Source: Patescibacteria group bacterium
GTDB taxonomy: Bacteria > Patescibacteriota > Minisyncoccia > Phycocordibacterales > PALSA-1337
DNA: 64,000 nt
Direction: 5' to 3'
Assembly: GCA_040388415.1 (NCBI GenBank)
Contig: JAZKBV010000003.1
Location: 47,571-111,570 of the forward strand
Shown here: positions 26,226 through 43,016 of the stretch, piece after piece
Numbering within the stretch: the stretch's first letter is position 1
Layout: every line of letters begins with the position of its first letter
Notes under the pieces: generated by a model
Databases searched by the model: none
Seen by the model: only the letters and a program-made list of their open reading frames with translations
Told to the model about the DNA's origin: nothing
Made by a program: the position numbers and the translations under genes

Positions 26226-26830
26226 ACAAGGATCATTATAATTTCAAAGTATATTCTCATCTCGGCAGATGGGTGAGCTATTTCTTTCAACTTGAGCAAG
26301 TCTTTTCTTTTAGCCCAACATCTATCCTTGAGATCGGTGTCGGCGACCGTGTCTTTGGGGATTATATAAAAAATAATACTAGTATAAAGTATCTCTCAGC
26401 CGATGTAGCCGAAGATCTCAAGCCTGATGTAGTTGCAAGTGTGACAGCATTGCCTTTCACTGACGGAGAGTTCGATGTCTCATGTGCTTTTGAAGTACTT
26501 GAGCATATTCCATTTGATTCATTTGGAGTGGCGTTGCGAGAGATGTCTCGTGTGTCAAAAAAAGCAGTTATTATCAGCCTTCCGCACTTCGGCCCCTCAT
26601 GTGAGCTTTCATTCAAGATTCCTTTTATCAAAAGAGTAAAGCTTGCCTTCAAGCTTCCATTCCATCCGATTCATGTCTGGAATGGTGAGCATTATTTCGA
26701 AATAGGAAAAAAAGGGTATGAGATTAGCGAGATACGTAAAGTACTACGAAAAGATTTTGTCATCCAAAAAGATTTTGTGCCATTTGAAAACCAGTATCAC
26801 CATTTCTTTGTTCTTGTTCCAAAAAAGTAA
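26210..26830 (+). CDS. Class I SAM-dependent methyltransferase
   Basis: ILEIGVGDRVFG motif I, FEVLEHIP post-II. Confidence 0.6.
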   Translation: MEKQVNKDHYNFKVYSHLGRWVSYFFQLEQVFSFSPTSILEIGVGDRVFGDYIKNNTSIKYLSADVAEDLKPDVVASVTALPFTDGEFDVSCAFEVLEHIPFDSFGVALREMSRVSKKAVIISLPHFGPSCELSFKIPFIKRVKLAFKLPFHPIHVWNGEHYFEIGKKGYEISEIRKVLRKDFVIQKDFVPFENQYHHFFVLVPKK

Positions 26831-26841
26831 TCGTTACGCGT

Positions 26842-27873: not shown

Positions 27874-27879
27874 AACAAT

Positions 27880-28665: not shown

Positions 28666-28670
28666 ATAAG

Positions 28671-28709
28671 AAAAAACAGCGTTCCTCGAAAGGAACGCTG
28701 TGTGTTTTT
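28671..28709. terminator. Bidirectional intrinsic terminator
   Basis: aaaaaac-agcgttcct-cgaa-aggaacgct-gtgtgtttttg between convergent genes. Confidence 0.65.
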
Positions 28710-28714
28710 GTGAA

Positions 28715-29536
28715 TCAATGTAAGACTTCGAAATTGAGGCGCGCTGCTGCGAGCTCCATTGAAGCATTGATACGCGCACGTTGCACGTCGCGTTTTTCAC
28801 GCATCCCTGCATCATCTTCGGCCAGCTGTTCGGGCGGATGAACATAATCAACCGTGACCGACTTCACTTCGAGGCCAGCATCGAGGAACCAGAGGACTGG
28901 GACAAACAAAATCTGCCATTTGTCACTGTCAGAATCCGGTTCGTCAGCGCCGTTGTAAATGGCCATCATGCGAGCAGCTTCAGCTGTCATCACACGTGGG
29001 CCAAAGTAGAGATCAAGGGCAGGCTGATTGGTGATGTTGGCCAGCTCCCAGTTTCCGCGGTATTCCGAGAATTGCTGATAGGGTGGATAACCGTCAAGAT
29101 TCTTCCGGCGCGGGATAACCACATCGGCTTCTTCGAAGACGATTTCATTGAGGCAGGGAACAAGCAACGGAATGAGCGTGTGTTTTTCCGGCTCAAGCCA
29201 AACGATGATGTCCGCGCCAGAATCGATACCTGCTCCGAGAGCTTGGCGGCGGGATGCACCCATACCAGACTCTTTCTGATCAATGACAATGACTCCTGTT
29301 TCCCGTAGCGCTTTCTTGAAGGAAAGACACGGACTGCCGTCAATGACGATAAGGTTGTAACCATGCTGCTTGCATGCGAGGCACGTCTTGATCGCTAGGC
29401 GAGCACGTGGCTCGTCGACTGACTGATATGAAGTTGTCGTCACGAGGACGACTTTTTTTAAATGTTCACTCACGGCATAGTCCTTTTTGTTGTGCGTTTG
29501 CTGTGTCAGTCCGATGTTGTATCGAACTAAATTCAA
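28715..29536 (-). CDS. Hypothetical protein, GT-A-fold glycosyltransferase-like; compositionally GC-richer than neighbours
   Basis: KVVLVTTTSYQS...IVIDGSP pattern; visibly higher GC than flanking glycan genes. Confidence 0.3.
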   Translation of the reverse strand: MNLVRYNIGLTQQTHNKKDYAVSEHLKKVVLVTTTSYQSVDEPRARLAIKTCLACKQHGYNLIVIDGSPCLSFKKALRETGVIVIDQKESGMGASRRQALGAGIDSGADIIVWLEPEKHTLIPLLVPCLNEIVFEEADVVIPRRKNLDGYPPYQQFSEYRGNWELANITNQPALDLYFGPRVMTAEAARMMAIYNGADEPDSDSDKWQILFVPVLWFLDAGLEVKSVTVDYVHPPEQLAEDDAGMREKRDVQRARINASMELAAARLNFEVLH

Positions 29537-29629
29537 GCACCATTATAACATTTTATGTACTTAATGTCAATTTGTAGATTTACGTTCGTATCTCTGATAT
29601 AGTACGAATCTAAACGCTTATATTTCCAC

Positions 29630-30670
29630 ATGAAAAAAGCACTCATCACAGGCATTACCGGACAAGATGGATCATATCTCGCAGAGTTTCTTCTGAACAA
29701 AGGTTATGAGGTGCATGGACTCATTCGCCGCGCATCTTCTTTTAATACTGGCCGCTTGAGTCATATTTTTCAGGATCCCCATGAGAAGAATAAAAAGCTC
29801 ATCCTTCATTATGGAGACTTGTCAGACTCAAGCAACATCTCGCGACTTCTCGAAAAGATTCGTCCTGATGAGATCTACAACCTCGGTGCACAGAGCCATG
29901 TCCGTGTCAGCTTTGATATACCAGAATATACCGGCGACATCGTTGGTCTCGGCACGCTCCGCCTCCTCGATGCGATCAAGGATACACAGATAAAGACAAA
30001 GTTCTACCAAGCTTCATCGAGCGAGATGTTCGGTAAAGCGGTTGAATTGCCTTTGACTGAAAAATCAGCATTTCATCCCCGCTCGCCCTATGGCTGTGCA
30101 AAAGTGTTCGCCTATTGGACGACCAAGAACTATCGTGAGAGCTACGGCATCTTTGCGGTCAACGGCATCCTTTTCAATCATGAGTCTCCTCGCAGAGGTG
30201 AGACGTTCGTAACGCGCAAGATCACTCGCGGACTATCTCGCATCAAGCTTGGTTTGGAAGACAAGCTCCACCTCGGTAATCTCGATGCAAAGCGCGATTG
30301 GGGTCATGCCCAAGACTATGTAGAGGGTATGTGGCTCATGCTACAAGCAAAAAAACCTGATGACTACGTGCTCGCTATGGGAGAGATGCATTCCGTTAGA
30401 GAGTTCGTTGAACTTGCTGCAAAATGCTTGGGTATCGACCTCATCTGGAAAGGCAAAGGTATCAAAGAAGTTGGTATAGATAAAAAGACAAAGAAAGTAA
30501 TCATTGAGATTGATCCGCACTATTTCAGACCAGCAGAAGTTGATGTGTTACTCGGTGATTCAAAGAGAGCGCGAAAAGAGCTTGGTTGGAAGCCGAAGAT
30601 TTCATTCAAACAGCTCATCGAGCTCATGGTGGATGCTGATATGGAAAAGGAATCAGGAAAGAAGAAATAA
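29630..30670 (+). CDS. gmd: GDP-mannose 4,6-dehydratase
   Basis: [19 protein letters not shown], YxxxK SDR motif, full-length 346 aa. Confidence 0.95.
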
Positions 30671-30673
30671 ACT

Positions 30674-31834
30674 ATGATTAAACTCGTCAAATCAACTTTC
30701 TATAAAGAAAAAGAAACCAAGGCATCTTTGGCAGAGTTCATACTCAAGACAGATATTTTGAGTATGGGTGATGAGTGTAAAAAATTCGAGGCGGCATTTG
30801 CTAAAAAACAAAAAAGAAAATACGCGCTACTCGTTTCGAGTGGTTCAATGGCCAACCAAGTCTTGATCCAGTCAGTGCTGAATAAAGGTTTGCTTAAAAA
30901 AGGCGATAAGGTCGCAGTGTCCGCACTCACCTGGGCGACCAATATCATGCCGCTACTCCAGCTTGGTCTTGAGCCAGCTATCCTCGACGTTGATATCGCC
31001 ACATTCAACGTCTCTTCAGTTGAGCTTGAAAAACACATAAAAGGCATCAAAGCATTTTTCATAACTAATGTGCTCGGCTTGTGCGGCGATATGACTCAGA
31101 TTAAAAAAGTATGTGACAAGCATGGTGTACTTTTGCTCGAAGATAATTGCGAGTCGCTCGGCTCAGAGATCGACGGCAAGCTTCTGGGTAACTTTGGACT
31201 TGCCTCGACGTTCTCATTTTTTGTCGGACATCATCTCTCAACAATCGAGGGTGGCATGGTCTGTACTGATGATGAGGATTTATACAATATGCTCGTTATG
31301 GTACGTGCGCATGGTTGGGACCGAAACCTTTCTCCTGAAATACAGCAGAAGCTCAGAAAAGAAGCTGGCTGTGACGATTTTTATGCCAAGTATACATTTT
31401 ATGATCTTGCCTATAATGCTCGTCCAACTGAGATCACTGGTTTTCTCGGTAACTCTCAGCTTCCATATCTCGATCTGATGATCGCCAAGCGTGTTTCAAA
31501 TTTTAAGCGTTTTGCTGAAGCGGTGAATGCAAATGATGATTTTATGAATATTGATTATTCACATGTCGATATAGTTTCAAATATGGCTATGCCTATCGTA
31601 TGCAAGACGCCAGAAAAAGCCGAGATCTATAAAAAGAAATTTGCTGGTGCTGTGGAGATACGACCGGTTATTGCGGGCAACATGCTCAATCAACCATTTT
31701 ATAAAAAATATGTGACGAGCAGTGCTACATATCCGAACACTGACTTTGTTCATCAGAACGGCTTTTATTTTGCCAACAATGCAGAATTAACAGATGAAGA
31801 AGTTGACCTTATCGTTTCACTGCTTCAAAAATAA
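30674..31834 (+). CDS. DegT/DnrJ/EryC1-family PLP enzyme with His replacing catalytic Lys: GDP-4-keto-6-deoxymannose 3-dehydratase (ColD)-like
   Basis: SFFVGHHLSTIEGG where aminotransferases have K 8 residues before GEGG; flanked by gmd and fcl-like genes. Confidence 0.6.
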   Translation: MIKLVKSTFYKEKETKASLAEFILKTDILSMGDECKKFEAAFAKKQKRKYALLVSSGSMANQVLIQSVLNKGLLKKGDKVAVSALTWATNIMPLLQLGLEPAILDVDIATFNVSSVELEKHIKGIKAFFITNVLGLCGDMTQIKKVCDKHGVLLLEDNCESLGSEIDGKLLGNFGLASTFSFFVGHHLSTIEGGMVCTDDEDLYNMLVMVRAHGWDRNLSPEIQQKLRKEAGCDDFYAKYTFYDLAYNARPTEITGFLGNSQLPYLDLMIAKRVSNFKRFAEAVNANDDFMNIDYSHVDIVSNMAMPIVCKTPEKAEIYKKKFAGAVEIRPVIAGNMLNQPFYKKYVTSSATYPNTDFVHQNGFYFANNAELTDEEVDLIVSLLQK

Positions 31835-31835
31835 T

Positions 31836-32783
31836 ATGAATACAATTAAAAAAAATTCAAAGATATATATCGCTGGCCACACAGGCTTGGTCGGCAGTGC
31901 GATCGTCAGAAAACTGCAAGCTGAAGGCTATACCAGCATCGTTACACGCATACGCACAGAGCTGGATCTCTTGGATGCAAAAGCAGTCGGTCATTTCTTT
32001 TCTATAGAAAAACCTGAGTATGTTATCGATGCCGCAGCTCGAGTTGGAGGCATAAAAGCAAACATGACCTTTCCTGCAGAATTTCTCTATGAGAACCTCC
32101 AGATACAAAATAATCTCATTTGGTCAGCGCATCGGCATGAAGTCAAAAAATTCCTATTCCTTGGCAGCTCATGCATATATCCCCGCAGCGCTCCTCAACC
32201 GATGAAAGAAGAGTATTTTCTCGACGGGAAGCTCGAGCCGACCAACGAAGGATATGCTCTGGCAAAAATCTCAGGCATGAAGCTGTGTGAAAAGATCAAT
32301 ACTGAATATAAAAAAGATTTTATTTCTTGTATGCCGACGAACATCTATGGTCCTCATGATAATTTCAGCGAAGAATCATCTCACGTTATTCCAGCTCTTA
32401 TCCAACGTTTCCATAAAGCAAAGCTTGCTCACGATCCTGAAGTAGTGATTTGGGGTAGTGGCATCAGTCGCAGAGAATTCTTGTACGTTGACGATCTGGC
32501 TGAAGCGATTGTTTGGCTCATGGAGAACTACGATCAAAAAGAATTTTTGAATGTAGGCACCGGCGAGGATGTATCTATCAAAGAATTGGCTACGCTCATA
32601 AAAGAGATCGTGGGTTATGAAGGCAAGCTCGTATTTGATACGACAAAGCCCGACGGTATGCCAAAAAAGCTTCTCGACGTTTCAAAGCTCACGGCTCTCG
32701 GTTGGCAGTCAAAAACGAAGCTCGAAGATGGTCTCAAGCAAAGCTACGCATGGTTTTTGGAATACGGGCAAAAACAAAAATAA
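31836..32783 (+). CDS. GDP-L-fucose synthase family epimerase/reductase (Fcl / GDP-L-colitose synthase ColC-like)
   Basis: KIYIAGHTGLVGSAI, YAxAK motif; start taken at ATG 31836 right after upstream stop. Confidence 0.8.
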   Translation: MNTIKKNSKIYIAGHTGLVGSAIVRKLQAEGYTSIVTRIRTELDLLDAKAVGHFFSIEKPEYVIDAAARVGGIKANMTFPAEFLYENLQIQNNLIWSAHRHEVKKFLFLGSSCIYPRSAPQPMKEEYFLDGKLEPTNEGYALAKISGMKLCEKINTEYKKDFISCMPTNIYGPHDNFSEESSHVIPALIQRFHKAKLAHDPEVVIWGSGISRREFLYVDDLAEAIVWLMENYDQKEFLNVGTGEDVSIKELATLIKEIVGYEGKLVFDTTKPDGMPKKLLDVSKLTALGWQSKTKLEDGLKQSYAWFLEYGQKQK

Positions 32784-32808
32784 TCCAAATCATGATAGTA
32801 TAGCCTCT

Positions 32809-33489
32809 ATGAATACATCTACTCCAGACAGCAGATTTGACCCTGTGGCATCGTCAAAGACATTCAATAGGATCTTGGATGGTCTCTCTCTTCGTGACAC
32901 AAAAACCCTTGATCTTGGTTGTGGCTACGGTGAGTATCTTGTAAAGTTTGGCGCTGGGAGTGTTGGCGTGACGACGACATTGGCTGAAGTTGAATATGGC
33001 AAAACGCATAACCTCAATATAGTAAAAGGGAATGTGGAGCTCATCGACACACTTGGCCTCGATAGATCTTTTGGGGCGATCTGGGCGAATAATCTTTTTG
33101 AACATTTGCTCGCGCCACATGCTTTTTTGATAAAGCTTAAAACAATCACTAAACCCGAGGGACTACTCATTCTTGGTGTTCCGGTGATCCCTGTCATACC
33201 TGCCATGATGAAGATAGGTAAATTCCGGGGCGCACTAGCTGTTGCTCATGTGAATTTCTTTACACGAGAAAGCTTGAAGCTGAGCGTCGAGCGTGCTGGC
33301 TGGAAAGTGTCAGCCGTTCGCCCCTTTATCTTTTCAAATAAGATTTTGGATACTGTTGCAAGCTATTTTGCGCCACATCTTTATGTCGTTGCGCGCAATA
33401 ATGCAGACTTTAAATATGATGTAAAGAAATTGAAAGAGTGGAAAGACGACGCTCACTATAAGAGCATTCTCGATATCACTGGGCAATGA
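32809..33489 (+). CDS. Class I SAM-dependent methyltransferase
   Basis: LDLGCGYGEYL motif I; start at ATG 32809 after fcl stop. Confidence 0.6.
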   Translation: MNTSTPDSRFDPVASSKTFNRILDGLSLRDTKTLDLGCGYGEYLVKFGAGSVGVTTTLAEVEYGKTHNLNIVKGNVELIDTLGLDRSFGAIWANNLFEHLLAPHAFLIKLKTITKPEGLLILGVPVIPVIPAMMKIGKFRGALAVAHVNFFTRESLKLSVERAGWKVSAVRPFIFSNKILDTVASYFAPHLYVVARNNADFKYDVKKLKEWKDDAHYKSILDITGQ

Positions 33490-34610
33490 AAATCCTCTAT
33501 CTACAGAATATAAGGCTGCCCACGGAAAAGGCTCATGGTCTGCAGGTCATGGAAACTTGTCACTCATTGGCTCTCGCTGGCCATGAGGTCAACTTGGTCA
33601 TAGGTTCATATTTGTCGCTCGAGGAAAATGGCATTTTTGGCGTCTACGATATAGAAAAGAATTTTTCAATTAAAAAAGTCCCCGTAAGCTTCGGTCGGCA
33701 AGATCCCGAGCATACCAGTTTTTTGATGAAATCGATCATATTTGTCTATAATGCCTGGAGATCATATGGAAAAAGTTCGTTTGATATCGTCTATACGCGC
33801 GACACGCTGACCGCATTAGTATTTTCTATGCTCGGTAAAAAAGTGTTCTATGAGATTCATGATGTGCGCCATAGTCTGCTCCAGAAATTAGCCTTACAGA
33901 AAGCGGTGGGAGTGATCAGTATCACTCGCGGCTTAGTAGATTATTGTGAAAGCATCGGTGTAAAGAAAGAAAAGATCTGCATCGCGCCTGACGCAGTGGA
34001 CTTGGCCGAGTTCCAAATACGCGCTACGCAGCGTGAATGCAGGGAAAAGCTCGGTTTACCTCAAGATAAAAAGATCGTTTTGTATACAGGTCATCTCTAT
34101 TCATGGAAAGGGGCCGATACTTTTGCCGAGTCAGCGCAGTTTCTGGATGAAAATACAATGGTCTCTTTTGTTGGTGGGCATGATTATGATATCGAAGTGT
34201 TCAAGAAACGTTTTGCTAATGCGCATATCTCTGTGCTTGGGCGTAAATCCCATGACCTCATGCCATACTACATGAAAGCAGCTGATGTTCTCGTGCTCCC
34301 AAATAGCGCCAAAGAAGACATATCGCGCCTTTATACATCGCCGATAAAACTATTTGAGTACATGGCAAGCAGTCAGCCGATCGTCGCGTCAGATTTGCCG
34401 TCACTACGCGAGGTGCTTACTGAGAAAAATTGTACTTTTTTTGAAGCAGACAATGCAGAGTCGCTCGCAGGCACTATAAAGAAAGTCTTGGTTGATGCGC
34501 AGTCAGCGGGTATACTTGCCGAGCAAGCTTTGATCGATGTGCAAGAGTATACGTGGCAAAAGCGCGCGCAAAAGATCATCGATTTCATCAAGACTACCAA
34601 ACATGATTAA
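33486..34610 (+). CDS. Glycosyltransferase family 4
   Basis: GT-B, C-terminal ...PIKLFEYMASSQPIVAS. Confidence 0.8.
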   Translation: MKILYLQNIRLPTEKAHGLQVMETCHSLALAGHEVNLVIGSYLSLEENGIFGVYDIEKNFSIKKVPVSFGRQDPEHTSFLMKSIIFVYNAWRSYGKSSFDIVYTRDTLTALVFSMLGKKVFYEIHDVRHSLLQKLALQKAVGVISITRGLVDYCESIGVKKEKICIAPDAVDLAEFQIRATQRECREKLGLPQDKKIVLYTGHLYSWKGADTFAESAQFLDENTMVSFVGGHDYDIEVFKKRFANAHISVLGRKSHDLMPYYMKAADVLVLPNSAKEDISRLYTSPIKLFEYMASSQPIVASDLPSLREVLTEKNCTFFEADNAESLAGTIKKVLVDAQSAGILAEQALIDVQEYTWQKRAQKIIDFIKTTKHD

Positions 34611-35316
34611 AGATCCAGCATTTTATAATAAAGAAAGCGCGCAGTATTCTGCGAAGCGTTATCCAGTCGTAGCAACGAACTACATTCAGTTTTTCTTTAA
34701 AAAAAGGCTCAGTCTGACCCTCTCACATTTGAGAAGTTTATTCGGCAAGAGCAATGGTCTCAATCTACTCGAGGTCGGGTGCGCTGATGGGGTAGTATTG
34801 CGCGATATACAGAAAAAACTGCCTGCAGTATTTTCAGGCATGACTGGGATCGATACAGCAAAAGATATGATCGTTGCTGCTGCCTCGCTCGATAGTACCC
34901 ATAAGATGAAGTTTTATGTCCGTGGTGAAGAGCCTGTGCAGACGTACGATACGATCGTTGAGATCGGGGTTGCTAACTATGCTGATTTTGACACGGAGCT
35001 TGTCTATGCGAGTGAACATCTCAAAGTGGGAGGCGCATACATACTTTCTATTGCTGGGAACGATTCGCTCAATGCGCGTCTCGGTGGTGGGGTAGGGTAT
35101 AATAATTTCTTATCTTATGCTGAATATCAAAAGAAGATACGTGCGGTATTTGATATAAAAAAGATAATCCCGGTTGGATTTCATGTTCCATTCATCTGGA
35201 GAGTTCCTTTTATTGCACGTTGCATTCAGCCGATTGTTGAGCTGATTTTTCTCCATACGTTACCTCGCCTCGCTCATGAAAAAATCTTCTTTTTAAAGAA
35301 AAAGAATGTGTTATAA
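34603..35316 (+). CDS. Class I SAM-dependent methyltransferase
   Basis: LLEVGCADGVV motif I; ATGATTAA overlap with upstream stop. Confidence 0.6.
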   Translation: MIKDPAFYNKESAQYSAKRYPVVATNYIQFFFKKRLSLTLSHLRSLFGKSNGLNLLEVGCADGVVLRDIQKKLPAVFSGMTGIDTAKDMIVAAASLDSTHKMKFYVRGEEPVQTYDTIVEIGVANYADFDTELVYASEHLKVGGAYILSIAGNDSLNARLGGGVGYNNFLSYAEYQKKIRAVFDIKKIIPVGFHVPFIWRVPFIARCIQPIVELIFLHTLPRLAHEKIFFLKKKNVL

Positions 35317-35325
35317 TTTGAAACC

Positions 35326-36207
35326 ATGATGTTTTATACTAAGGCAAATAACAGCAAAAGCTTCGTGTACCACCGTATGGCAATGATCGCTGGATGGAGA
35401 AGTGGAGCGCTTACATTCCAAGATGCAATCTTACTCGCGTTACCAGCTCGTATTTTGCCACGCAGAAATGAGCTCACCTCACGTTATGAATCTTTTCTGA
35501 ATGAGCAATCTGAAAAAGAAATAAGAACATTTATGGATAAAGACTACCCGAATGTTTTTGAAAATATACTGGGAAATTCTAAGTTATCACTTATTTTTCA
35601 AATTTTTGTCAAAGATGAGTATAAAGCAAAAAGCTTTCTGAAACCTGACTCAGTAGTCATAGATGCAGGAGGAAATATCGGCATTTTTGCGATCTTCTCA
35701 TCCTTGCATTGTCCGCAAGGAAAAATATTCTCATTTGAACCAGTGACAAAAACATATGGTATTATGCTTGAAAATATAAAGAAGTATCCCAACATAAGAG
35801 CTATGAATATCGGACTTGGAGAGAAAGGGGGCGATCAAACGATTCTCACATCTTCTTGGAATGCTGGTATAAGCGCAGTCAGTGATAGTAGTCTAGCTCT
35901 CAAAAATAGCCGGTTTTTTGATGGATCAGAAAAAATTCAGATTATAACTATTGATGACATGGTGGAACATGAGCATATATCACATGTTGATGTGATCAAG
36001 ATCGACACTGAGGGCTATGAAGCAAGCATATTAAAGGGTGCTCAAAAAACTATTTTTAGAGACAAACCAATAATAACCATGTCTGCTTACCACAATAAAG
36101 ACGATAAGACAGATCTGCCTAAAATCCTTAAAGCGATTTGCCCAGAATATAAATGCGAACAATACAATCGGTATGAAGAGGACATGGTCTGTTCGGTTAC
36201 ATCATAA
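35326..36207 (+). CDS. FkbM-family methyltransferase
   Basis: VIDAGGNIGIFAI ... IKIDTEGYE. Confidence 0.8.
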   Translation: MMFYTKANNSKSFVYHRMAMIAGWRSGALTFQDAILLALPARILPRRNELTSRYESFLNEQSEKEIRTFMDKDYPNVFENILGNSKLSLIFQIFVKDEYKAKSFLKPDSVVIDAGGNIGIFAIFSSLHCPQGKIFSFEPVTKTYGIMLENIKKYPNIRAMNIGLGEKGGDQTILTSSWNAGISAVSDSSLALKNSRFFDGSEKIQIITIDDMVEHEHISHVDVIKIDTEGYEASILKGAQKTIFRDKPIITMSAYHNKDDKTDLPKILKAICPEYKCEQYNRYEEDMVCSVTS

Positions 36208-37111
36208 GCCATTCTTCGGGAATAAGATCATGTGCGATAGTCTTTGGGTCGCCAAAGCGTTGTTTTGGCGCTACGACGATCTTTTGTGGGTTAGTGTTAA
36301 GCCAAGCACCCCACCAGCTATATGAGCTCTTGGCGATGATGTTATGTGAGCATGAACTCATGATGATGAGCTCTTCATAGTCCGGAATCTTATATTTGGA
36401 TATATAGACAGCGTCAGCGCCAAAATCCATATTGTTTTTGACCCACTCTATCTCATCAGAAAATACAAAGATGCGGAGCGGAGCACCGTTAGTTTTTTCT
36501 TTTATATACTGAAGCGCTTTCGAATAATATTCGCGCGTGAGCTCACCATGTTTTTTGAGCAGCGCGGGATCATTCGCTTGGTCGCCGCGGCGAATATGGA
36601 TCGATACTGAAAGAGCGGATTCGATCATTTTCTCTAGTTCAGCAGCTTTGTCTGAAAGCGGTTTTTTGAGCTGTAAATCATTTCGGATGACAGCTTCAAA
36701 TCCTTTGAAATATTTTTCACTTTGCCAGACGCCAGATAGATAGCTGTCATGATCAATGCTCATGACTTCAGGTATAAAGTCGAAACCAGGCTCGAGAATG
36801 ACCTTTCTTTTATGGAGTGGTTTAATCGATTCGATGAATCTAAATCCTTTGCGAATGATCTTTGAGAGTGTGTCTTGCTTGATAGGATCTGGAATGCCTG
36901 TTTTAATGAAGTCGCTATCAGTGGCGATAAGCTGTTCTATATTTGTAATATTGAAGTGGGGAAGCTTGAATGAACGATCTGGTTCGATATTAAGGCCGTA
37001 GAAGTGCGTATCTAGTCTGAGTTCAGTGCTATTTTTGAGCGACAAGGCCCGCCCAAGGGCGTACTGGAAGAGTTGATTGCCTATGCCTCCTGATATGCGG
37101 GTGATGATCAT
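36197..37111 (-). CDS. GT11 alpha-1,2-fucosyltransferase-family glycosyltransferase
   Basis: ISGGIGNQLFQYA, HIRRGD motifs. Confidence 0.8.
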   Translation of the reverse strand: MIITRISGGIGNQLFQYALGRALSLKNSTELRLDTHFYGLNIEPDRSFKLPHFNITNIEQLIATDSDFIKTGIPDPIKQDTLSKIIRKGFRFIESIKPLHKRKVILEPGFDFIPEVMSIDHDSYLSGVWQSEKYFKGFEAVIRNDLQLKKPLSDKAAELEKMIESALSVSIHIRRGDQANDPALLKKHGELTREYYSKALQYIKEKTNGAPLRIFVFSDEIEWVKNNMDFGADAVYISKYKIPDYEELIIMSSCSHNIIAKSSYSWWGAWLNTNPQKIVVAPKQRFGDPKTIAHDLIPEEWLMM

Positions 37112-37122
37112 AGTGATGATTG

Positions 37123-39168
37123 TTATTTAAAAAATGCTTTGTATTTTTCTTTGTTCTCAAGAAGATATTGTGGCAGATCTGATTCATCTACCCATAGTTT
37201 TACATTTTTGCCACGGTGGTCGATATTTTTTGTGATTGCATCTTCAAGCTCGGCTATGTATTTTTTGTTTCCATAAAATGGATGGTCTGCTTCAGTAATC
37301 TTTCTTCGGGCACCGTCTATGCCCCCTTGAAAGTTGAAGTGCCAACCGCCGTTTCGAAGAACAGTGAATGCTGTTTTACCCTTTAAGCTGCGGATATCAT
37401 TGAGAGACCGAGCCTTTATGTTCTTGTATTTTGTCACAACCGTCCCGCTCCAACCCATCCAATCTTCATCTGATCGATTATTGAGATAATACATATAAGG
37501 CAATTGACGAGGCTTGAAGTAGCTATCCTGAGAATAATCAATAACAAGCTTCGGGTTCCATATTTCATCAAGGTCAGATAGGTAACATACATCAGCATCA
37601 TTCAACCCGACAAGCGCTTTCCTAATAGATTCTTTCATGTAGCATTCTTTGACCCAATATGGCTTTGAATGGTCAATTGTATCGTTTGAAATGCAATATT
37701 CAAGTGTTTCTCTGTCGATAGTTTGAGCTTCGCTGAGCTGAGACAATCTTTTTTTCATGTCAGTATCGTCTTGAGGTATATCGTCGATGACATGGTGGAT
37801 TATTTTGTGCGCCCATTTTTTGTAGCGGTTTTTGTTCTCTTCAAAATGCAGCTTTTTCTTATTTCCTGAAAATGTTTCTGCATACTCGACTATAACAAAA
37901 TAGTCGACATATGGGTCAAGGATATTCAGGCGTATCTCCAAGAGGTCGAGCTCATTGAAAAAGGGGAAGACATCGTATATCTTTATTTTTTTTCTGTATT
38001 CGGCGATTTGATTCTTTGCTAGCCATACCATTTTTCTAAGTCTAATTTCGTTTATTGCTTCGATTACCTGATTTGGATATTTGAGTATTTTCTTGACTAT
38101 ACGTTTGCTATTTTTTCTTGTTATAAAAGAAAACTTTTTGGCATTGCGAATAGTTCTTGTAATATTATCTTTTATCCAGATAGCGCTTCGAAGCCCTCGT
38201 GCACGGAAGAGCCAGATGAGCGCATATATCACCGTAACGTCATTTCTAATCGCTTTAAATATCTGCCAATTATTTTTTATCCGGTTCACAATAGTTTTTT
38301 TGAATTTGCCTGAATGAGCAGTATAAAGCGCTTCATTTCTTTTCATATAATCAGCAAGCTCAGAGGCGCACGAGTCATACCCACTTAGATCTCCTTTTCT
38401 ATCTAAATACATCCAGCTTTGCGTAAGGTTATATCCCAAGCTCCAATATCCATCTGAGATGTTGTGCCGCGCCCAATATTTAGGAGCTATGCAGAATTTG
38501 AGGTCTTCCGAAAGCCATGCAGGGAACCAGGCGAAGCTCGAATTTGAGAGTATGAGGTATTTTGCATTTTTGATCACCGCGTAATCTTTGCCGATATTCC
38601 AATGGTTGACCTCAAAATCAGGGAAGAATTTTTTTGCTGTCTTTACGTCATCGGTAACGACGACGAATCTGAAATTAGGGTTGATATTTCGCATATGGGC
38701 GATCGCATTATCCCAGTATCGTTGTGGCAAGAAAAAATCTACGTCGAACGCATATCCGCCGCCCCGAAAATTGATGATGCATATGCTCTCGTCTGAGTAA
38801 TCCCTGCAATCGAATTCAGGCCTGATTCGCAGCCACTCGCGAATCTCGTTTTTTCGATGGGCGATGTATTGTTCGTCCTGCATGTAGCCATCGATTTGCG
38901 TGCCGTTAGGCACGTTCACTAGATCGGCGTCATACGTGCGTATATCCGATCCGTTGAGAGAGTGAATGATCTCCTTTTCCTGATAATAGTTCGTCACGCT
39001 TTTAATTTCTTCACCCAAGTTGATCGGCATGAAATCATGACCTTTGAATAACTCTGGCGAAACTAAGCCGAAATCGCATCCGCGATCTTTTGCGATGACG
39101 CGGGCAGTCACATAGCACCAAAGCTGGTTGCCAAGTCCTTGTCCGTTGTAGAATTTAGTCGATATCAT
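37123..39168 (-). CDS. Fused two-domain glycosyltransferase: N-terminal GT11-like + C-terminal GT17-like
   Basis: N-term NGQGLGNQLWCYV (GT11 motif variant); C-term YDVFPFFNELDLLEIRLNIL...VDYFVIVE (GT17-like); start at 39168 gives ATGA overlap with upstream GT2 stop. Confidence 0.5.
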   Translation of the reverse strand: MISTKFYNGQGLGNQLWCYVTARVIAKDRGCDFGLVSPELFKGHDFMPINLGEEIKSVTNYYQEKEIIHSLNGSDIRTYDADLVNVPNGTQIDGYMQDEQYIAHRKNEIREWLRIRPEFDCRDYSDESICIINFRGGGYAFDVDFFLPQRYWDNAIAHMRNINPNFRFVVVTDDVKTAKKFFPDFEVNHWNIGKDYAVIKNAKYLILSNSSFAWFPAWLSEDLKFCIAPKYWARHNISDGYWSLGYNLTQSWMYLDRKGDLSGYDSCASELADYMKRNEALYTAHSGKFKKTIVNRIKNNWQIFKAIRNDVTVIYALIWLFRARGLRSAIWIKDNITRTIRNAKKFSFITRKNSKRIVKKILKYPNQVIEAINEIRLRKMVWLAKNQIAEYRKKIKIYDVFPFFNELDLLEIRLNILDPYVDYFVIVEYAETFSGNKKKLHFEENKNRYKKWAHKIIHHVIDDIPQDDTDMKKRLSQLSEAQTIDRETLEYCISNDTIDHSKPYWVKECYMKESIRKALVGLNDADVCYLSDLDEIWNPKLVIDYSQDSYFKPRQLPYMYYLNNRSDEDWMGWSGTVVTKYKNIKARSLNDIRSLKGKTAFTVLRNGGWHFNFQGGIDGARRKITEADHPFYGNKKYIAELEDAITKNIDHRGKNVKLWVDESDLPQYLLENKEKYKAFFK

Positions 39169-39950
39169 TTGGTGTAGCCTATAATGCTTACGATACAAGA
39201 CTTTATGAAACTTTTCATTCTTTTTGCTTTATATAGCAAGAGCAGGGCATGTTTGTGTCTTATCTTATGTTTTTTCAGCACATAGGCATACTCAGTCTCT
39301 CTCCGTTTCGTTGGGCTCGAATTGCCCATTTGGTTTTCGTGAACGCGTATAGCTATATCGACGCTGCCCAAGATTTTCGGGTTACCATAAAGGTTAAAAA
39401 GCGCGCGATAAAAATCAAGATCTTGCCACCAGATCAAGTTCGTATCAAATAAAGGGATGCTCGGGCTATTTTTTATAGTGACCACGGATGGCGCGCTCAC
39501 GGTATTTTTTTCTAGTATTTTTTCTCCATTAAAGCGAGGGTGGAACTCTCTAAAATAATTCGCTCCATCTTTTGTATGGATGCAGGCTGTTATAAGCCAT
39601 GCATCTTTTGCTAGGTCAAAATTATCGACGATATGTTGGAGCGACTCACTGTGATAAAGGTAGTCATCCAAGAAGAGTATTTTGATCAGTTTCCCGGTTG
39701 CGCGCTTTAGTGCATTATTCGTATTATCCGAAGGTGTTGCCCGAGGGTCTTCCTTGAAATAATGGATATCAAGCCTGTCGCCGTATTCGCGGCACACATC
39801 TTCGATCGCTGTATTTTTTGATTGATCAGAAACAACAATGTCAAAATCTTTGAATGTTTGGATGCACATCATATCGAAGCTGCGCTTTAGATACTGTGCA
39901 CCCTTACCACCCATTTCATATGCCGAGATGCAGATACTGATATGCTTCAT
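39165..39950 (-). CDS. Glycosyltransferase family 2 (GT-A)
   Basis: ISICISAYE...DIVVSDQS N-terminal GT2 pattern. Confidence 0.55.
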   Translation of the reverse strand: MKHISICISAYEMGGKGAQYLKRSFDMMCIQTFKDFDIVVSDQSKNTAIEDVCREYGDRLDIHYFKEDPRATPSDNTNNALKRATGKLIKILFLDDYLYHSESLQHIVDNFDLAKDAWLITACIHTKDGANYFREFHPRFNGEKILEKNTVSAPSVVTIKNSPSIPLFDTNLIWWQDLDFYRALFNLYGNPKILGSVDIAIRVHENQMGNSSPTKRRETEYAYVLKKHKIRHKHALLLLYKAKRMKSFIKSCIVSIIGYTK

Positions 39951-40008: not shown

Positions 40009-41628
40009 TTACATGAGAAGCTCGTTGATAATGGATCGTATTTTCTTATCTCTATCTTCTTGATCGCGCACGGTCTTCCAACCTGAAGCGCCGAAGATAT
40101 GCATCCAGTCGCCTATGTATTCTACCTCATCCAATGATAGGTCATTCACGGTCGTCGTGGGATTTTTTTGTTCCCGGATTTTTTTATGCGAATATGCAGG
40201 AAAAATGATCTTTTCTTGTTGAATCTTTGAATAGAACGAGTCCCAATTCATGCCACCAGTATCAACGGCAGTGCCATGTATCCTTCCATTGAGAAAATTC
40301 GCATGTATCCCGTCAAATGCTGATGCAGTATAAAAACAGAATCCAGCCCAGAGATACCACAACGAACCTCTCATCTGGAGATGGCCATATATGCGTTGCG
40401 AATCGAGGTGAGGAACGATGGATGTTTTTCTAATCGGAAAAATGTCATGGTCAAGAAAGCCGAAATAACGTGCGCCTCGCTTGCTCACATAATTTTTGTA
40501 AATCCAGTTGAGCGATGCGCCGTGGGAGGCCGAGCGTGTGAGAGGGTTTTTCGGAAGCTTCACATAAGCCACATTTTCGATTGCGCATAACTCTTTAATT
40601 TCCGCTGCTATTTTTATGTCAGGCGTGTTATCGAATACAGTATAAAAATAAGGATCAGTAAGGTTTTTTCGGAGCAGCTTGATCTGCCACTCGATGACTT
40701 CTTTATTGTTAAAAGCAACGGTGGCAAGGTCGATGACATATTTATTTTTGAGCGGAAGGATATCGCAGTTGATATGGTCGCATGCATTGAAGGGTATGCG
40801 ATAGAAGGCCTGTTCTCTGTATCTCAGGTATATCTTTTTAAAATGGAATCTAGCTTTGCTCATTACTATTCTCAAAATAAATAAGCACATATACCAAAAG
40901 TATACAGGCTGGATTATTTTGTATTTTTTAATCAAAAATGAAAGATATTTTTTTTGTACGTTCATGAGCTCGATGCCTCGCACCCGACTTTCGAAATATG
41001 TGCTTATCTGGTCCGCATGGATCCTTTTCTTGAGCAAGACCTCGGGTACATTTGCGATACATAATCCAGCGCTCATTGCTCGGACGTATAAGTCGTATTC
41101 ATTCTCGTAACGGTATTTTTCAGTATAGGCCAGACTCTTCCTCTCTAGATCGCTTTTACGGATAATGAGAGAAGATGATTCAACTTCATTTTTGAGAAGC
41201 ATTCCGCTGTGAACGTGCGTGACGAACTGAGGATATTTCCTAATCGCATTTCTTGATCCTATCTCTTGGATCTGACTTCCTGCAATGGCTATTTCTGGAT
41301 GAACATCCATGAAATGTACAAGTGTCTCAATTCTTGCAGGATAGCTGATATCATCGGCGTCCATTCTCACGATGTACTCGCCACGCGCCGAGCTTAATCC
41401 CTGGTTGAGCGCTTTAGTGATGCCGGTATTCTTTTCATTCTTTAAATAGGTGATCCGGCGGTCTTTGATCGACGCCACTATTTTTTCTGTCACGTCTAAT
41501 GATCCATCATTGATAATGATCAGTTCAAAATCAGGAAAAGTCTGGTACAGGATGCTGTCGATAGCATCTTTGATATATTTTTTGCCATTGAATACAGGTA
41601 GTATAACCGAAACTTTTGGATTACTCAT
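40009..41628 (-). CDS. Glycosyltransferase family 2 with additional ~300-aa C-terminal domain of unknown function
   Basis: VSVILPVFNGKKYIKDAIDSILYQTFPDFELIIINDGS...RMDADD; C-terminal half with FDNTPD / GFLDHD motifs. Confidence 0.75.
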   Translation of the reverse strand: MSNPKVSVILPVFNGKKYIKDAIDSILYQTFPDFELIIINDGSLDVTEKIVASIKDRRITYLKNEKNTGITKALNQGLSSARGEYIVRMDADDISYPARIETLVHFMDVHPEIAIAGSQIQEIGSRNAIRKYPQFVTHVHSGMLLKNEVESSSLIIRKSDLERKSLAYTEKYRYENEYDLYVRAMSAGLCIANVPEVLLKKRIHADQISTYFESRVRGIELMNVQKKYLSFLIKKYKIIQPVYFWYMCLFILRIVMSKARFHFKKIYLRYREQAFYRIPFNACDHINCDILPLKNKYVIDLATVAFNNKEVIEWQIKLLRKNLTDPYFYTVFDNTPDIKIAAEIKELCAIENVAYVKLPKNPLTRSASHGASLNWIYKNYVSKRGARYFGFLDHDIFPIRKTSIVPHLDSQRIYGHLQMRGSLWYLWAGFCFYTASAFDGIHANFLNGRIHGTAVDTGGMNWDSFYSKIQQEKIIFPAYSHKKIREQKNPTTTVNDLSLDEVEYIGDWMHIFGASGWKTVRDQEDRDKKIRSIINELLM

Positions 41629-41633
41629 GGATG

Positions 41634-43016
41634 TTAAATCGGATTAACTGGAGTAACTGTTGTAGCCTCAAGTGGTTTCTTTCGAATAAAAATGATGATT
41701 TGTAGTCCGAACAGAATAAAGTTCAAGAGTATTTGAGCCCAGAGCAATCCCCAGATGCCATAGAAGTAGAGCAATACTGAAAGCAATAGTATTCTCAGTG
41801 TTGGCATGACAAAGCTGACGATATAGAGCTCTTTCGTTTTGCGTTGAGCAATGAGAGCCATTTGCACGACCGTGGTGACGAGTGAGAAAAAAGATAGGGC
41901 ATAGATCTGCGTATAATGTATAGAATCGACATATGCAGGAAAGAACGTATGGAACGCCCATGGAGCGAACGCCGCATAGCTGCCTTCGCTTACGACGACA
42001 AGGACGACTATGACCCATAGCTTTTTCTTCAAGATATCTTTTACCTGTTCCTCTGATCGGTCTGATAATCTGAGAAGCACGAGGTTTGGAATGAATTTGA
42101 GGATGCCAGAGATCTTTTCTGGTATGATCGTGGCAAATGAATATATAGCGAGAGCGGTTGAGCCGATGAAATGGAAAACAAGCAGAGAGTCGAGCTGTCC
42201 CGCCAATGTTCCAAAGATATTCATTACAGACAGATGGATACCATAGGAAATGGTCTCATTATCTCTTTTTTCGTTTGGCGGAATATGTTTTATGACATAC
42301 AGATATAAGATGAAGTTGGTGAGAAATATGAAAAAGTAGTTTGCCGCCACGATCCAGAGAACATTTCTTGTAAAGTAAAGCGCAAGAAGGATCGGGACGT
42401 AGCTGATTATATTGTTGAAAAGTCCGTAGTATGTACCAATACGAAATAATTTTTTCCCGCCCAGATATGCGACCCACGTATTGAATGCGTTTCCAAGGGG
42501 GAGAAAAATAGCAATCAATATAAATGCTGTTCCGAGCGTATAGTTGCTGTGTATGAAGTACCATGACGATACGCTGAGTCCGAGAACGGCAGGGATGATA
42601 CCTGCCATGAGCTGGAAATGAACCGAATGCTTGAATTCTCCTTCAAATCCACGCGCCACTGCACGAGTGACAGCGCCGTTCATGTTATTGAGTGTTGTTG
42701 CGCCGATGAGCCCTGCAATAGCAAGTATGTATTGATACGTTCCGTAGGCATCTTTGCTCATGTATCGTGCAAACAAGAGCGATCCAGCAAAAGACATGAT
42801 CGTCACTATTGCCATGTTGAAATTGCTCCAAAATGTGCCGCTCGCCAAGTACACCATATCCGTCTTGGTGTACTGCTCTGACCAGCGAAGAAGTGAAATA
42901 AGTCTATTTTTCATGCGTTTGACTATGTTGGAAAGGTGATTGTGCAATACTAACATATCTTGCACCAGCTTGTTGAGTATTTGTCGTACATTAAGTATGA
43001 TGTATGAATTACCCAT
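41634..43016 (-). CDS. Wzx-like oligosaccharide flippase (MOP superfamily); alternative start at 42914
   Basis: ~12 TM helices, length and topology typical of polysaccharide flippases. Confidence 0.65.
   Translation of the reverse strand: MGNSYIILNVRQILNKLVQDMLVLHNHLSNIVKRMKNRLISLLRWSEQYTKTDMVYLASGTFWSNFNMAIVTIMSFAGSLLFARYMSKDAYGTYQYILAIAGLIGATTLNNMNGAVTRAVARGFEGEFKHSVHFQLMAGIIPAVLGLSVSSWYFIHSNYTLGTAFILIAIFLPLGNAFNTWVAYLGGKKLFRIGTYYGLFNNIISYVPILLALYFTRNVLWIVAANYFFIFLTNFILYLYVIKHIPPNEKRDNETISYGIHLSVMNIFGTLAGQLDSLLVFHFIGSTALAIYSFATIIPEKISGILKFIPNLVLLRLSDRSEEQVKDILKKKLWVIVVLVVVSEGSYAAFAPWAFHTFFPAYVDSIHYTQIYALSFFSLVTTVVQMALIAQRKTKELYIVSFVMPTLRILLLSVLLYFYGIWGLLWAQILLNFILFGLQIIIFIRKKPLEATTVTPVNPI

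What the first reader, a model, noticed from the sequence alone, without database searches (positions are those of the whole stretch)
37123..39168. Single polypeptide fusing GT11 (fucosyltransferase-like) and GT17 (bisecting-GlcNAc-transferase-like) domains
The N-terminal third carries the GT11 signature G-L-G-N-Q-L (NGQGLGNQLWCYV). The C-terminal half carries the YDVFPFFNELDLLEIRLNIL motif seen in bacterial GT17 homologues. A GT11-GT17 fusion is rare and predicts a processive two-linkage enzyme. It lies directly downstream of a stand-alone GT11 gene (36197-37111). The 4-nt ATGA overlap with the upstream GT2 gene indicates translational coupling.
Basis: partly seen in the sequence, partly recalled or inferred. 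Interest (0 to 1): 0.55.

Follow-up and report, generated by a model that had tools for sequence, protein, structure and literature searches.

The report
Two-module glycosyltransferase (GT11-like plus GT17)
This gene of an uncultured Patescibacteria bacterium does encode one protein with two separate sugar-adding enzyme modules, but the design is common in this group and is one fused version of a gene set that other bacteria keep as separate neighbouring genes.

Summary
The ORF is real: minus strand, 37123-39168, 681 aa, and public gene callers call it identically. It holds two independent, confidently predicted folds (AF2 mean pLDDT 92.6).

- **N module (res 1-~283):** a fucosyltransferase-type GT-B fold and a divergent GT11 relative. 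hhalign gives 99.6% probability against canonical GT11, but Pfam scores 22-23.5 bits, just under the 23.9 cutoff. The GT11 motif HxRRxD is reduced to NFRGGG, keeping only the invariant R135.
- **C module (res ~385-681):** a GT17-family GT-A fold (Pfam 69-75 bits against a cutoff of 26) with an invariant D532-x-D534.
- **Linker:** about 100 residues, helical, strongly cationic (26 K/R, 4 D/E), poorly conserved, with no transmembrane segment.

The fusion is not rare. At least 120 database clusters share the architecture, and relatives occur in 196 species genomes. In 65 of 65 loci holding the N-type, GT17 and canonical GT11 modules, the N-type comes before GT17 on the same strand. The modules are fused, split, or interrupted by DUF3431 or FkbM domains. 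Four loci instead fuse GT17 to the canonical GT11.

The locus is a surface-glycan cluster with Gmd and Fcl, a Wzx-like flippase and a Wzy-like protein. The protein most likely adds two consecutive sugars to a lipid-linked glycan. Processivity is untested. I rate it an ordinary but uncharacterised bifunctional glycosyltransferase.

The parts
37123..39168 (-). Whole ORF, 681 aa plus stop: the two-module glycosyltransferase. It is identical to the NCBI entry 'MAG: hypothetical protein V4524_02700 [Patescibacteria group bacterium]'.
38320..39168 (-). N module, residues 1-283: fucosyltransferase-superfamily GT-B fold, a divergent GT11-like subfamily.
39112..39144 (-). GQGLGNQLWCY, residues 9-19: the N-terminal GT11-type motif. 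G13, N14, Q15, L16 and Y19 are invariant in 72 homologues.
38752..38781 (-). CIINFRGGGY, residues 130-139. It aligns with the GT11 motif I, HxRRxD. Only the first Arg (R135, invariant) is kept; His, the second Arg and Asp are lost.
38512..38547 (-). SNSSFAWFPAWL, residues 208-219: counterpart of the C-terminal GT11 motif (ANSSFSWWGAWL in canonical GT11).
38017..38319 (-). Linker, residues 284-384. It is predicted helical (H293-310, H313-380), strongly cationic, poorly conserved and variable in length. Other family members carry a DUF3431 or FkbM-methyltransferase domain at this position.
37126..38016 (-). C module, residues 385-681: GT17-family GT-A fold.
37918..37977 (-). D399, F401, E406, L410, R413 and L417 are invariant.
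37552..37578 (-). SDLDEIWNP, residues 531-539: candidate DxD metal and nucleotide-sugar binding motif. D532, D534, W537 and P539 are invariant.
39165..39168 (-). ATGA: the start codon of the fusion gene overlaps the stop codon of the upstream GT2 gene.
   Evidence: same arrangement in L003/L004
39165..39950 (-). Upstream small GT2 glycosyltransferase gene (261 aa by ORF, called as 249 aa in public records).
36197..37111 (-). Downstream stand-alone canonical GT11 gene (304 aa, HIRRGD present).
   Evidence: Pfam 89 bits. A canonical GT11 gene lies within 10 kb in 65 of 81 related loci.
40009..43016 (-). The first two genes of the same minus-strand gene string: a Wzx-like flippase (41634-43016) and a 539-aa GT2 with an unassigned C-terminal half (40009-41628).
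29630..32783 (+). GDP-sugar supply genes of the locus: Gmd (29630-30670), a DegT/RfbH-like aminotransferase (30674-31834) and Fcl (31794-32783).

Best explanation
The ORF encodes a genuine bifunctional, two-module glycosyltransferase of a surface-glycan locus in a Patescibacteria (Parcubacteria-type) genome.

**The two modules and the linker**
- Module 1 (res 1-283) is a GT-B enzyme of the fucosyltransferase superfamily and a divergent sister of GT11. I infer that it uses a GDP-activated 6-deoxyhexose, most simply the GDP-L-fucose made by the Gmd and Fcl enzymes of the same locus.
- Module 2 (res 385-681) is a GT17-family GT-A enzyme with an invariant DxD motif. I infer that it uses a UDP-sugar plus a divalent metal and makes a beta linkage.
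- The two modules are tethered by a cationic helical linker of about 100 residues. I infer that the linker holds the enzyme against the anionic cytoplasmic face of the membrane.

**Proposed action.** The two modules add two consecutive sugars to an undecaprenyl-phosphate-linked oligosaccharide. The product is then finished by the neighbouring canonical GT11 and GT2 enzymes and the methyltransferases, and exported by the Wzx-like flippase.

**Evolutionary setting.** The protein is one fusion state of a conserved gene module, N-type GT -> (DUF3431) -> GT17 -> GT11. This module occurs in several phyla as separate, adjacent or variously fused genes.

**Shown versus inferred.** Shown: ORF, two folds, family relationships, conservation of motifs, distribution, gene context. 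Inferred: donors, linkages, acceptor, membrane association, order of action.
For: - **ORF and start:**
- **Two confident, separate folds with a helical linker:** (pLDDT 92.6).
- **GT17 membership:** Pfam above cutoff in the query and in 72 of 72 homologues. The C module aligns end to end (query residues 3-296 of 299, E=2e-56) with P0144. P0144's Pfam GT17 hit spans profile positions 61-299 of 348 at 216 bits.
- **GT11 relationship:** the N module aligns over 232 columns to a profile of 66 canonical GT11 proteins, 99.6% probability.
- **Constraint on both modules:** both carry many invariant polar residues (R135, D174, N209; D399, E406, R413, D422, E428, K512, E513, D532, D534, H610). The linker is unconstrained.
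- **Autonomy of the modules:** both exist as stand-alone proteins elsewhere.
- **Conserved partnership:** the N-type comes before GT17 on the same strand in 65 of 65 loci with all three modules. Alternative fusions exist, namely GT17+GT11 in 4 loci and three-domain forms.
- **Locus context:** Gmd meets its equivalog cutoff and Fcl scores 472 bits. The locus also has GT4 and GT2 genes, methyltransferases, a Wzx-like flippase and a Wzy_C-TPR protein.
- **Linker properties:** 26 K/R against 4 D/E, amphipathic (muH up to 0.76), no TM-grade hydrophobic window.
Against: - Motif I of GT11 (HxRRxD), which binds the GDP-fucose diphosphate in the fucosyltransferase superfamily, is degenerate (NFRGGG). 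The donor of the N module, and even its activity, is therefore uncertain.
- Position 138, which aligns with the Asp of that motif, is E in 37 homologues and G in 28, including this protein.
- Gmd and Fcl lie within 10 kb in only 14-18 of 81 related loci. Fucose supply is thus not tightly linked to the module, though the genes could lie elsewhere in those genomes.
- No bacterial GT17 has a known activity (PMC4202792), so the UDP-sugar and beta-linkage assignment rests on the mammalian MGAT3 precedent and the GT-A/DxD pattern.
- pTM is 0.58, so the relative placement of the modules is not predicted.
- Membrane association of the linker rests on composition only.
Confidence: 0.6

Rival explanations
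1. Processive co-polymerase. The two modules alternate on a growing chain and build a polymer of a disaccharide repeat in the cytoplasm. This would resemble the two-domain polymerases K4CP and PmHS2, or the O-antigen polymerases of ABC-transporter-dependent pathways.
For: - The protein has a two-GT architecture.
- The fold search also touches the two-domain polymerases K4CP, PmHS2 and CHSY3 through their GT-A domains.
- In 14 of 81 related loci the gene lies next to a Wzm/Wzt-type ABC transporter. In L001 it follows Wzt (with a Wzt_C domain) directly, with overlapping codons.
- The split forms in Citrifermentans and Lachnospiraceae sit beside an ABC exporter.
- Related GT17 modules occur in giant multi-GT plus FkbM proteins of 1000-2250 aa, typical of such polymerases.
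Against: - This window's locus has a Wzx-type flippase and a Wzy_C-domain protein and no Wzm/Wzt genes among the ORFs scanned.
- 28 of 81 related loci carry a Bac_transf priming enzyme and 27 a Wzy-like protein.
- The locus encodes many further GTs (at least 5 GT4, 2 GT2 and 1 GT11). That fits a complex repeat unit built stepwise.
- Nothing in sequence or model tests processivity.
Confidence: 0.22
2. Only the GT17 module is catalytic. The N module is a degenerate pseudo-glycosyltransferase that serves as an acceptor-binding, scaffolding or regulatory domain.
For: - It has lost His, the second Arg and Asp of HxRRxD.
- It scores below the Pfam GT11 cutoff.
- A canonical GT11 with an intact motif is encoded right next to it and in 65 of 81 related loci. 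The fucosyl transfer may therefore already be covered.
Against: - The N module is the more conserved half (column conservation 0.62-0.89).
- R135, G136 and Y139 are invariant inside the remnant motif. The other GT11 motifs are kept (GLGNQL, TDD, SNSSFxWxxAWL).
- The N-type protein exists as a stand-alone gene in Lachnospiraceae, Citrifermentans, Elusimicrobia and Thiobacillus.
- From my own knowledge, not tested here: other fucosyltransferase families keep only the first Arg of this motif.
Confidence: 0.15
3. Artefact: two adjacent genes joined by an assembly or frameshift error, or a chance pair of motifs.
For: Many related loci carry the two modules as separate adjacent ORFs (18 of 81), so joined and split states both occur.
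Against: - The identical 681-aa product is called on independent assemblies, one from NCBI and one from a Logan run.
- At least 120 clusters from many samples share the same continuous architecture.
- The AF2 model is confident through the junction.
- The E-values exclude chance.
Confidence: 0.01

Closest known systems
CAZy/Pfam family GT17 (PF04724). The only characterised activity is mammalian MGAT3/GnT-III, a beta-1,4-N-acetylglucosaminyltransferase that adds the bisecting GlcNAc.
   Same: The family HMM is matched above its curated cutoff. The fold is GT-A. An invariant D-x-D-E-I motif is present. The N-terminal motif block N-E-x-D-L-L-x-x-R lies inside the Pfam match.
   Different: The protein is bacterial and cytoplasmic, with no signal anchor. 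It is fused to a second GT. The Pfam alignment covers only profile positions 68-146 directly. The eukaryotic acceptor, an N-glycan core beta-mannose, is not expected here. Bacterial GT17 proteins are uncharacterised (PMC4202792).
CAZy/Pfam family GT11 (PF01531): alpha-1,2-fucosyltransferases such as H. pylori FutC, E. coli WbsJ/WbwK/WbiQ and human FUT1/2.
   Same: Profile-profile homology extends over the whole GT11 length (99.6%). The shared motifs are GxGNQ at the N terminus, the [ST]DD motif and the SSFSWW-AWL-type motif. The fold is the fucosyltransferase-type GT-B. GDP-fucose synthesis genes lie in the locus.
   Different: The score is below the Pfam cutoff (22.2-23.5 against 23.9). HxRRxD is replaced by NFRGG(E/G)Y. 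There is a family-specific extension (res 236-283). The module forms its own subfamily and co-occurs with, rather than replaces, a canonical GT11.
Two-domain bacterial glycosyltransferases and polymerases: E. coli K4 chondroitin polymerase K4CP, Pasteurella heparosan synthase PmHS2, and the multi-module O-antigen enzymes WbbB and WbdA (the last two from my own knowledge).
   Same: Several catalytic GT modules sit in one polypeptide of a polysaccharide locus. K4CP and PmHS2 appear among the fold matches. A long helical segment lies between modules, as in WbbB (my own knowledge).
   Different: Those enzymes combine GT-A+GT-A or other families, not a GT-B fucosyltransferase-like module with GT17. 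The linker here is cationic, poorly conserved, variable in length (70-141 residues) and replaceable by a domain. It therefore does not look like a conserved coiled-coil ruler. Processivity is unknown.

Membership tests
GT17 (PF04724) | Match to the family HMM at or above the curated gathering score | tested here: met
   69.2 bits for the full protein and 75 bits for the C module alone, cutoff 26. 72 of 72 homologues match. The direct alignment covers only profile positions 68-146 of 348. The rest is supported by end-to-end alignment to proteins with 200+ bit GT17 hits over positions 61-299.
GT17 (PF04724) | GT-A fold with a DxD motif | tested here: met
GT17 (PF04724) | UDP-GlcNAc:beta-mannoside beta-1,4-GlcNAc transferase activity | not testable with these tools
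   This needs an enzyme assay. The eukaryotic acceptor is not expected in this organism.
GT11 (PF01531) | Match to the family HMM at or above the curated gathering score | tested here: not met
   22.2 bits for the full protein and 23.5 bits for the N module alone, against a cutoff of 23.9. 47 of 72 homologues hit at E<=0.01, best 5.9e-10.
GT11 (PF01531) | Homology to bona fide GT11 over the whole catalytic domain | tested here: met
   hhalign of the N-module profile against 66 canonical GT11 sequences from the related loci: 99.6%, E=4.9e-24, 232 columns, template positions 1-288 of 304. BLASTP to the neighbouring GT11 gives E=7e-6.
GT11 (PF01531) | Motif I HxRRxD (GDP-fucose binding) | tested here: not met
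   The motif aligns with N133-F-R135-G-G-G138. Only the first Arg is kept and it is invariant. Position 138 is E in 37 and G in 28 of 72 sequences.
GT11 (PF01531) | Fucosyltransferase-type GT-B fold | tested here: met
GT11 (PF01531) | Transfer of L-fucose from GDP-fucose | not testable with these tools
   Only contextual evidence exists: Gmd (572 bits, equivalog cutoff met) and Fcl (472 bits, cutoff 500) lie 4-7 kb away in the same locus.
Processive two-domain polysaccharide polymerases | Two catalytic GT modules in one polypeptide | tested here: met
Processive two-domain polysaccharide polymerases | Repeated alternating transfer onto a growing chain, usually paired with an ABC-transporter or synthase export route | tested here: inconclusive
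   Processivity cannot be tested with these tools. This locus has Wzx-like and Wzy_C genes rather than Wzm/Wzt. However, 14 of 81 related loci carry Wzm/Wzt next to the gene.

The most novel reading that the evidence does not exclude
The N-type GT, the GT17 module and the canonical GT11, often with DUF3431, form a horizontally mobile three- or four-enzyme cassette. It would build one conserved fucose-containing glycan motif in Patescibacteria, Lachnospiraceae, Geobacter relatives, Elusimicrobia, Thiobacillus and even an Altiarchaeales MAG. In Patescibacteria the fused N-GT17 enzyme would act as the chain-building polymerase of that glycan. If true, this would give the first function for bacterial GT17 and for a new GT11-like subfamily that works without the HxRRxD motif.
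Probability: 0.2. Interest if true: 0.5.

Novelty: new member of a known kind. Interest (0 to 1): 0.3.

Why it matters
Bacterial GT17 proteins have no assigned activity, and the N-type GT11-like subfamily with a degenerate HxRRxD motif is undescribed in the literature I could search. The fixed N-type -> GT17 partnership occurs in fused, split or domain-interrupted forms. It offers a concrete, testable pair of enzymes. Cultured carriers of the split form exist for genetics (Citrifermentans bremense R1, Lachnospiraceae COE1 and G11). Surface glycans of Patescibacteria are also of interest because these cells live attached to hosts. Beyond that, multi-module glycosyltransferases in polysaccharide loci are routine, and nothing here contradicts current understanding.

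Tried and rejected
- **PDB sequence searches.** A single-sequence search and a 72-sequence profile search of the PDB found no relative. No GT11 or GT17 structure could be used as a direct reference.
- **AFDB Foldseek library.** It was unavailable, so the model could not be compared with predicted MGAT3-type structures.
- **NCBIfam.** It has no model for the protein.
- **Molecular-ruler idea for the linker.** I considered the linker as a WbbB/WbdD-like coiled-coil ruler and rejected this as the main reading. It is poorly conserved, its length runs from 70 to 141 residues without a fixed class, it carries net charge +22, and it is replaced by whole domains in relatives.
- **Transmembrane anchor.** Rejected: the maximum Kyte-Doolittle 19-residue mean is 1.31.
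- **Orthology of the 539-aa GT2.** I tested whether the window's 539-aa GT2 is the orthologue of the GT2+DUF5672 gene that precedes the module in Citrifermentans. Only the GT2 domain aligns.
- **Literature searches.** Searches for GT17/GT11 fusions, PF04724, DUF3431/DUF5672 and Patescibacteria fucosyltransferases found no description of this family.
- **Promoter and terminator scan of the operon.** It showed nothing above the shuffled expectation.
Full report
**1. The observation**

The interval holds one uninterrupted ORF on the minus strand. The ATG at 39168 gives 681 aa, and a TTG 30 nt upstream is also open. Three lines favour the ATG. Homologues begin at the same Met (M1 nearly invariant in 72 sequences). 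Independent public gene calls give the identical 681-aa product, from NCBI GCA_040384245.1 and a Logan assembly. The ATG also forms the ATGA overlap with the stop of the upstream GT2 gene.

The two quoted peptides are present. NGQGLGNQLWCYV is at residues 8-20 and YDVFPFFNELDLLEIRLNIL at residues 398-417.

Two details of the finding are wrong.
- Both genes are on the minus strand, so the stand-alone GT11 gene (36197-37111) lies downstream of the fusion gene, 11 nt after its stop.
- The fusion is not rare (section 4).

The exact protein is in NCBI as 'MAG: hypothetical protein V4524_02700 [Patescibacteria group bacterium]'. The rest of the window fits such a genome: Mur ligases, MraY-type GT4, MurB, SecA and DUF5671.

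**2. Anatomy**

Pfam assigns residues 390-468 to Glyco_transf_17 (E=4.5e-19, 69 bits, cutoff 26). It assigns residues 149-236 weakly to Glyco_transf_11 (22.2 bits, cutoff 23.9). Scanned alone, the C part scores 75 bits with two stretches. The N part scores 23.5 bits and the linker matches nothing.

In an alignment of 72 full-length homologues (A1), column conservation is high in residues 1-275 and 385-681. It collapses to 0.16-0.33, with up to 64% gaps, in residues 281-380.

AlphaFold2 with this alignment gives mean pLDDT 92.6 and no segment below 50. It shows an alpha/beta domain to about residue 283, helices 293-310 and 313-380, and a second alpha/beta domain from 385. pTM is only 0.58, so the mutual orientation of the domains is not determined.

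Foldseek agrees.

**3. Family relationships**

*C module.* All 72 homologues pass the GT17 model. An exhaustive search with the C module alone finds 6883 cluster representatives at E<=1e-3. Many are stand-alone proteins of 250-330 aa. The module aligns end to end (residues 3-296 of 299, E=2e-56) with P0144. It also aligns with giant multi-GT proteins whose Pfam GT17 hits span profile positions 61-299 of 348 at 200-216 bits. I therefore treat the whole C module as a GT17 catalytic domain, although Pfam aligns only its first 80 residues directly. Its invariant residues are D399, E406, R413, D422, E428, K512, E513, D532, D534, W537, W609 and H610. S-D532-L-D534-E-I-W-N-P is the obvious DxD candidate.

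*N module.* BLASTP against the neighbouring canonical GT11 gives E=7e-6. A profile of the 72 N modules aligns with a profile of 66 canonical GT11 proteins taken from the related loci. The result is 99.6% probability, E=4.9e-24, over 232 columns covering GT11 positions 1-288 of 304.

The GT11 motifs GxGNQ(L/M)xxY, [ST]DD and SSFSWWxAWL have clear counterparts: GLGNQLWCY, T-D-D174 and SNSSFAWFPAWL. Motif I (consensus iHVRRgDY) aligns with I-N-F-R135-G-G-(E/G)-Y. The first Arg is invariant. His, the second Arg and Asp are lost, and position 138 is E in 37 and G in 28 of 72 sequences.

The N module is thus a distinct, divergent GT11-like subfamily. By the strict tests (Pfam cutoff, HxRRxD) it is not a member of GT11.

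No relative of either module has a solved structure detectable by sequence.

**4. Distribution and the wider gene module**

The word-indexed search found 460 clusters at E<=1e-3. All 120 listed carry both modules in the same order. They include the following forms.
- Two-domain forms of 616-730 aa.
- Three-domain forms of 850-980 aa. In these a DUF3431 (PF11913) or FkbM-type methyltransferase (PF05050) domain sits between the modules, where this protein has its linker.
- One form with a SAM-methyltransferase appended (P0099).

Sources name some members 'alpha-1,2-fucosyltransferase', 'DUF3431 domain-containing protein' or 'hypothetical protein'.

A scan of one genome per species found relatives in 196 genomes, of which 80 loci were kept. 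Most are Patescibacteria: Paceibacterota/Parcubacteria, Nomurabacteria, Vogelbacteria, Minisyncoccia and MAGs labelled Saccharibacteria. Others include Lachnospiraceae (with the cultured COE1 and G11), Citrifermentans bremense R1, Elusimicrobia, Thiobacillus, Chitinophagaceae and an Altiarchaeales MAG.

I called ORFs in these loci and searched them with the two modules and the context proteins. Among 81 non-redundant loci the states are as follows.

| State | Loci |
|---|---|
| Single ORF with a short linker | 17 |
| Single ORF with an inserted domain | 8 |
| The two modules as adjacent separate ORFs | 18 |
| Separate ORFs up to a few kb apart | 34 |
| Only the N-type gene in the fetched stretch | 4 |

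- A canonical GT11 gene distinct from the N-type ORF lies within 10 kb in 65 of 81 loci.
- In all 65 loci with the three modules, the N-type comes before GT17 on the same strand.
- In 4 loci it is GT17 and the canonical GT11 that are fused (P0127 type: GT17 at 11-297, GT11 at 416-589 with 120 bits), while the N-type is separate.

In Citrifermentans bremense R1 the genes are separate, in this order: ABC exporter, epimerase, GT2+DUF5672, N-type, DUF3431, GT17, methyltransferase, GT11, epimerase, GT2. Lachnospiraceae COE1 has ABC exporter, N-type, DUF5672, GT17, GT2, DUF3431.

The window's gene is therefore one fusion state of a conserved N-type -> GT17 -> GT11 module. Alternative fusions of the same partners are classical evidence that they act in one pathway. 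Some of the 'adjacent separate' cases may be MAG frameshifts; I did not check this.

**5. Locus context in the window**

The gene is fourth in a five-gene minus-strand string with gaps of 5, 58, -4 and 11 nt.
1. Wzx-like flippase (41634-43016)
2. 539-aa GT2 (40009-41628)
3. Small GT2 (39165-39950)
4. The fusion gene
5. Canonical GT11 (36197-37111)

This string is divergent from a Wzy_C+TPR gene (43029-45236). The plus-strand block 20973-36207 encodes the following.
- Four or five GT4 enzymes
- A short Ugd-like protein
- Four methyltransferases, including an FkbM type
- Gmd (572 bits, equivalog cutoff met)
- A DegT/RfbH-like aminotransferase
- Fcl (472 bits against a cutoff of 500)

This is a surface-polysaccharide or glycoconjugate locus with a GDP-L-fucose supply. 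Across related loci the export context varies: Wzm/Wzt next to the gene in 14 of 81, a Bac_transf priming enzyme in 28, Wzy-like proteins in 27, and Gmd and Fcl within 10 kb in 14 and 18.

**6. Mechanism**

Shown: there are two separately folded modules, each under strong constraint at polar positions typical of active sites. Each is able to exist as an independent protein elsewhere, and they are always paired in the same order.

Inferred: the N module transfers a GDP-activated 6-deoxyhexose, most simply L-fucose. The GT17 module transfers a UDP-sugar with metal assistance, giving a beta linkage. Both act on a lipid-linked intermediate at the cytoplasmic membrane face.

The linker has 26 K/R against 4 D/E and amphipathic stretches with muH up to 0.76. 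It has no window hydrophobic enough for a transmembrane helix (maximum 1.31). I read it as a flexible, membrane-hugging tether. It is not a conserved coiled-coil ruler, because its length (70-141 residues) and sequence are not conserved and whole domains can replace it.

With Wzx and Wzy_C genes in this locus, stepwise addition of two sugars per repeat unit is more likely than cytoplasmic polymerisation (about 0.6 against 0.2). The ABC-transporter context of some relatives keeps the polymerase reading alive. A non-catalytic N module (about 0.15) cannot be excluded given the degenerate motif I. Its high conservation and its stand-alone occurrence argue against that.

**7. Comparison with what is known, and novelty**

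GT17 is known biochemically only from MGAT3. A review states that GT17 contains uncharacterised bacterial proteins and that no bacterial MGAT equivalents are known (PMC4202792). My literature searches found no paper on this fusion, on PF04724 in bacteria, or on DUF3431/DUF5672 function.

Multi-module glycosyltransferases are a familiar kind, and the architecture is already visible in public domain annotations. I therefore class this as a new (uncharacterised) member of a known kind.

**8. Verdict**

Interest is 0.3. The protein would be a useful handle on bacterial GT17 and on Patescibacteria surface glycans, but it is not surprising.

Noticed in passing
window 40009-41628 (-): The 539-aa GT2 protein upstream has a C-terminal half of about 300 aa (res 231-539) with no Pfam match even at E<=10. 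The sequence contains DNTPD and LDHD-like motifs, so it may be a second two-module glycosyltransferase in the same operon. It is not the orthologue of the GT2+DUF5672 gene that precedes the module in Citrifermentans; only the GT2 domain aligns.
   Followed up: partly
L013 11006-12781; also L029, L033, L034; protein P0127: A second kind of GT17/GT11 fusion exists. It has the GT17 module first and a canonical GT11 (120 bits, intact family match) second, with the N-type GT as a separate upstream gene. The same three partners are therefore fused in different combinations.
   Followed up: partly
proteins P0132 (2250 aa), P0144 (1824 aa), P0135 (1005 aa): These are giant multi-module proteins that combine up to four GT2 domains, two GT17 domains and FkbM or SAM methyltransferase domains. 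They look like single-polypeptide assembly lines for methylated polysaccharides. Their source organisms are unknown.
   Followed up: no
L067 10984-11841; L081 13683-14606 and 11049-11789; three-domain proteins such as P0063: DUF3431 (PF11913) and DUF5672 (PF18922) proteins travel with the N-type/GT17 module. They occur either as separate genes or inserted between the two modules. Their function is unknown, and no paper describing a function turned up.
   Followed up: partly
L020 (Altiarchaeales archaeon A3 MAG), L046 (Polynucleobacter sp. GWA2_45_21 MAG), L033/L034/L045 (MAGs labelled Gammaproteobacteria): Single-ORF or near-identical forms of the Patescibacteria-type gene sit on contigs assigned to unrelated taxa. 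The cause is either horizontal transfer or mis-binned Patescibacteria contigs.
   Followed up: no
window 24268-25146 (+): This nucleotide-sugar dehydrogenase homologue is only 292 aa. It matches positions 72-305 of a 413-position model and lacks the C-terminal domain, so it may be truncated or a pseudogene.
   Followed up: no
window 26842-27873 (+) and 27880-28665 (+): Two ORFs (343 and 261 aa) inside the polysaccharide locus have no Pfam match at E<=1e-3.
   Followed up: no
window 18949-20952 (+): A 667-aa TraG/TrwB/VirD4-like coupling-protein homologue (TrwB_AAD_bind, TraG-D_C) lies immediately upstream of the glycan locus.
   Followed up: no
window 35326-36207 (+) / 36197-37111 (-): The FkbM methyltransferase gene and the canonical GT11 gene converge, and their 3' ends overlap by 11 nt.
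   Followed up: no
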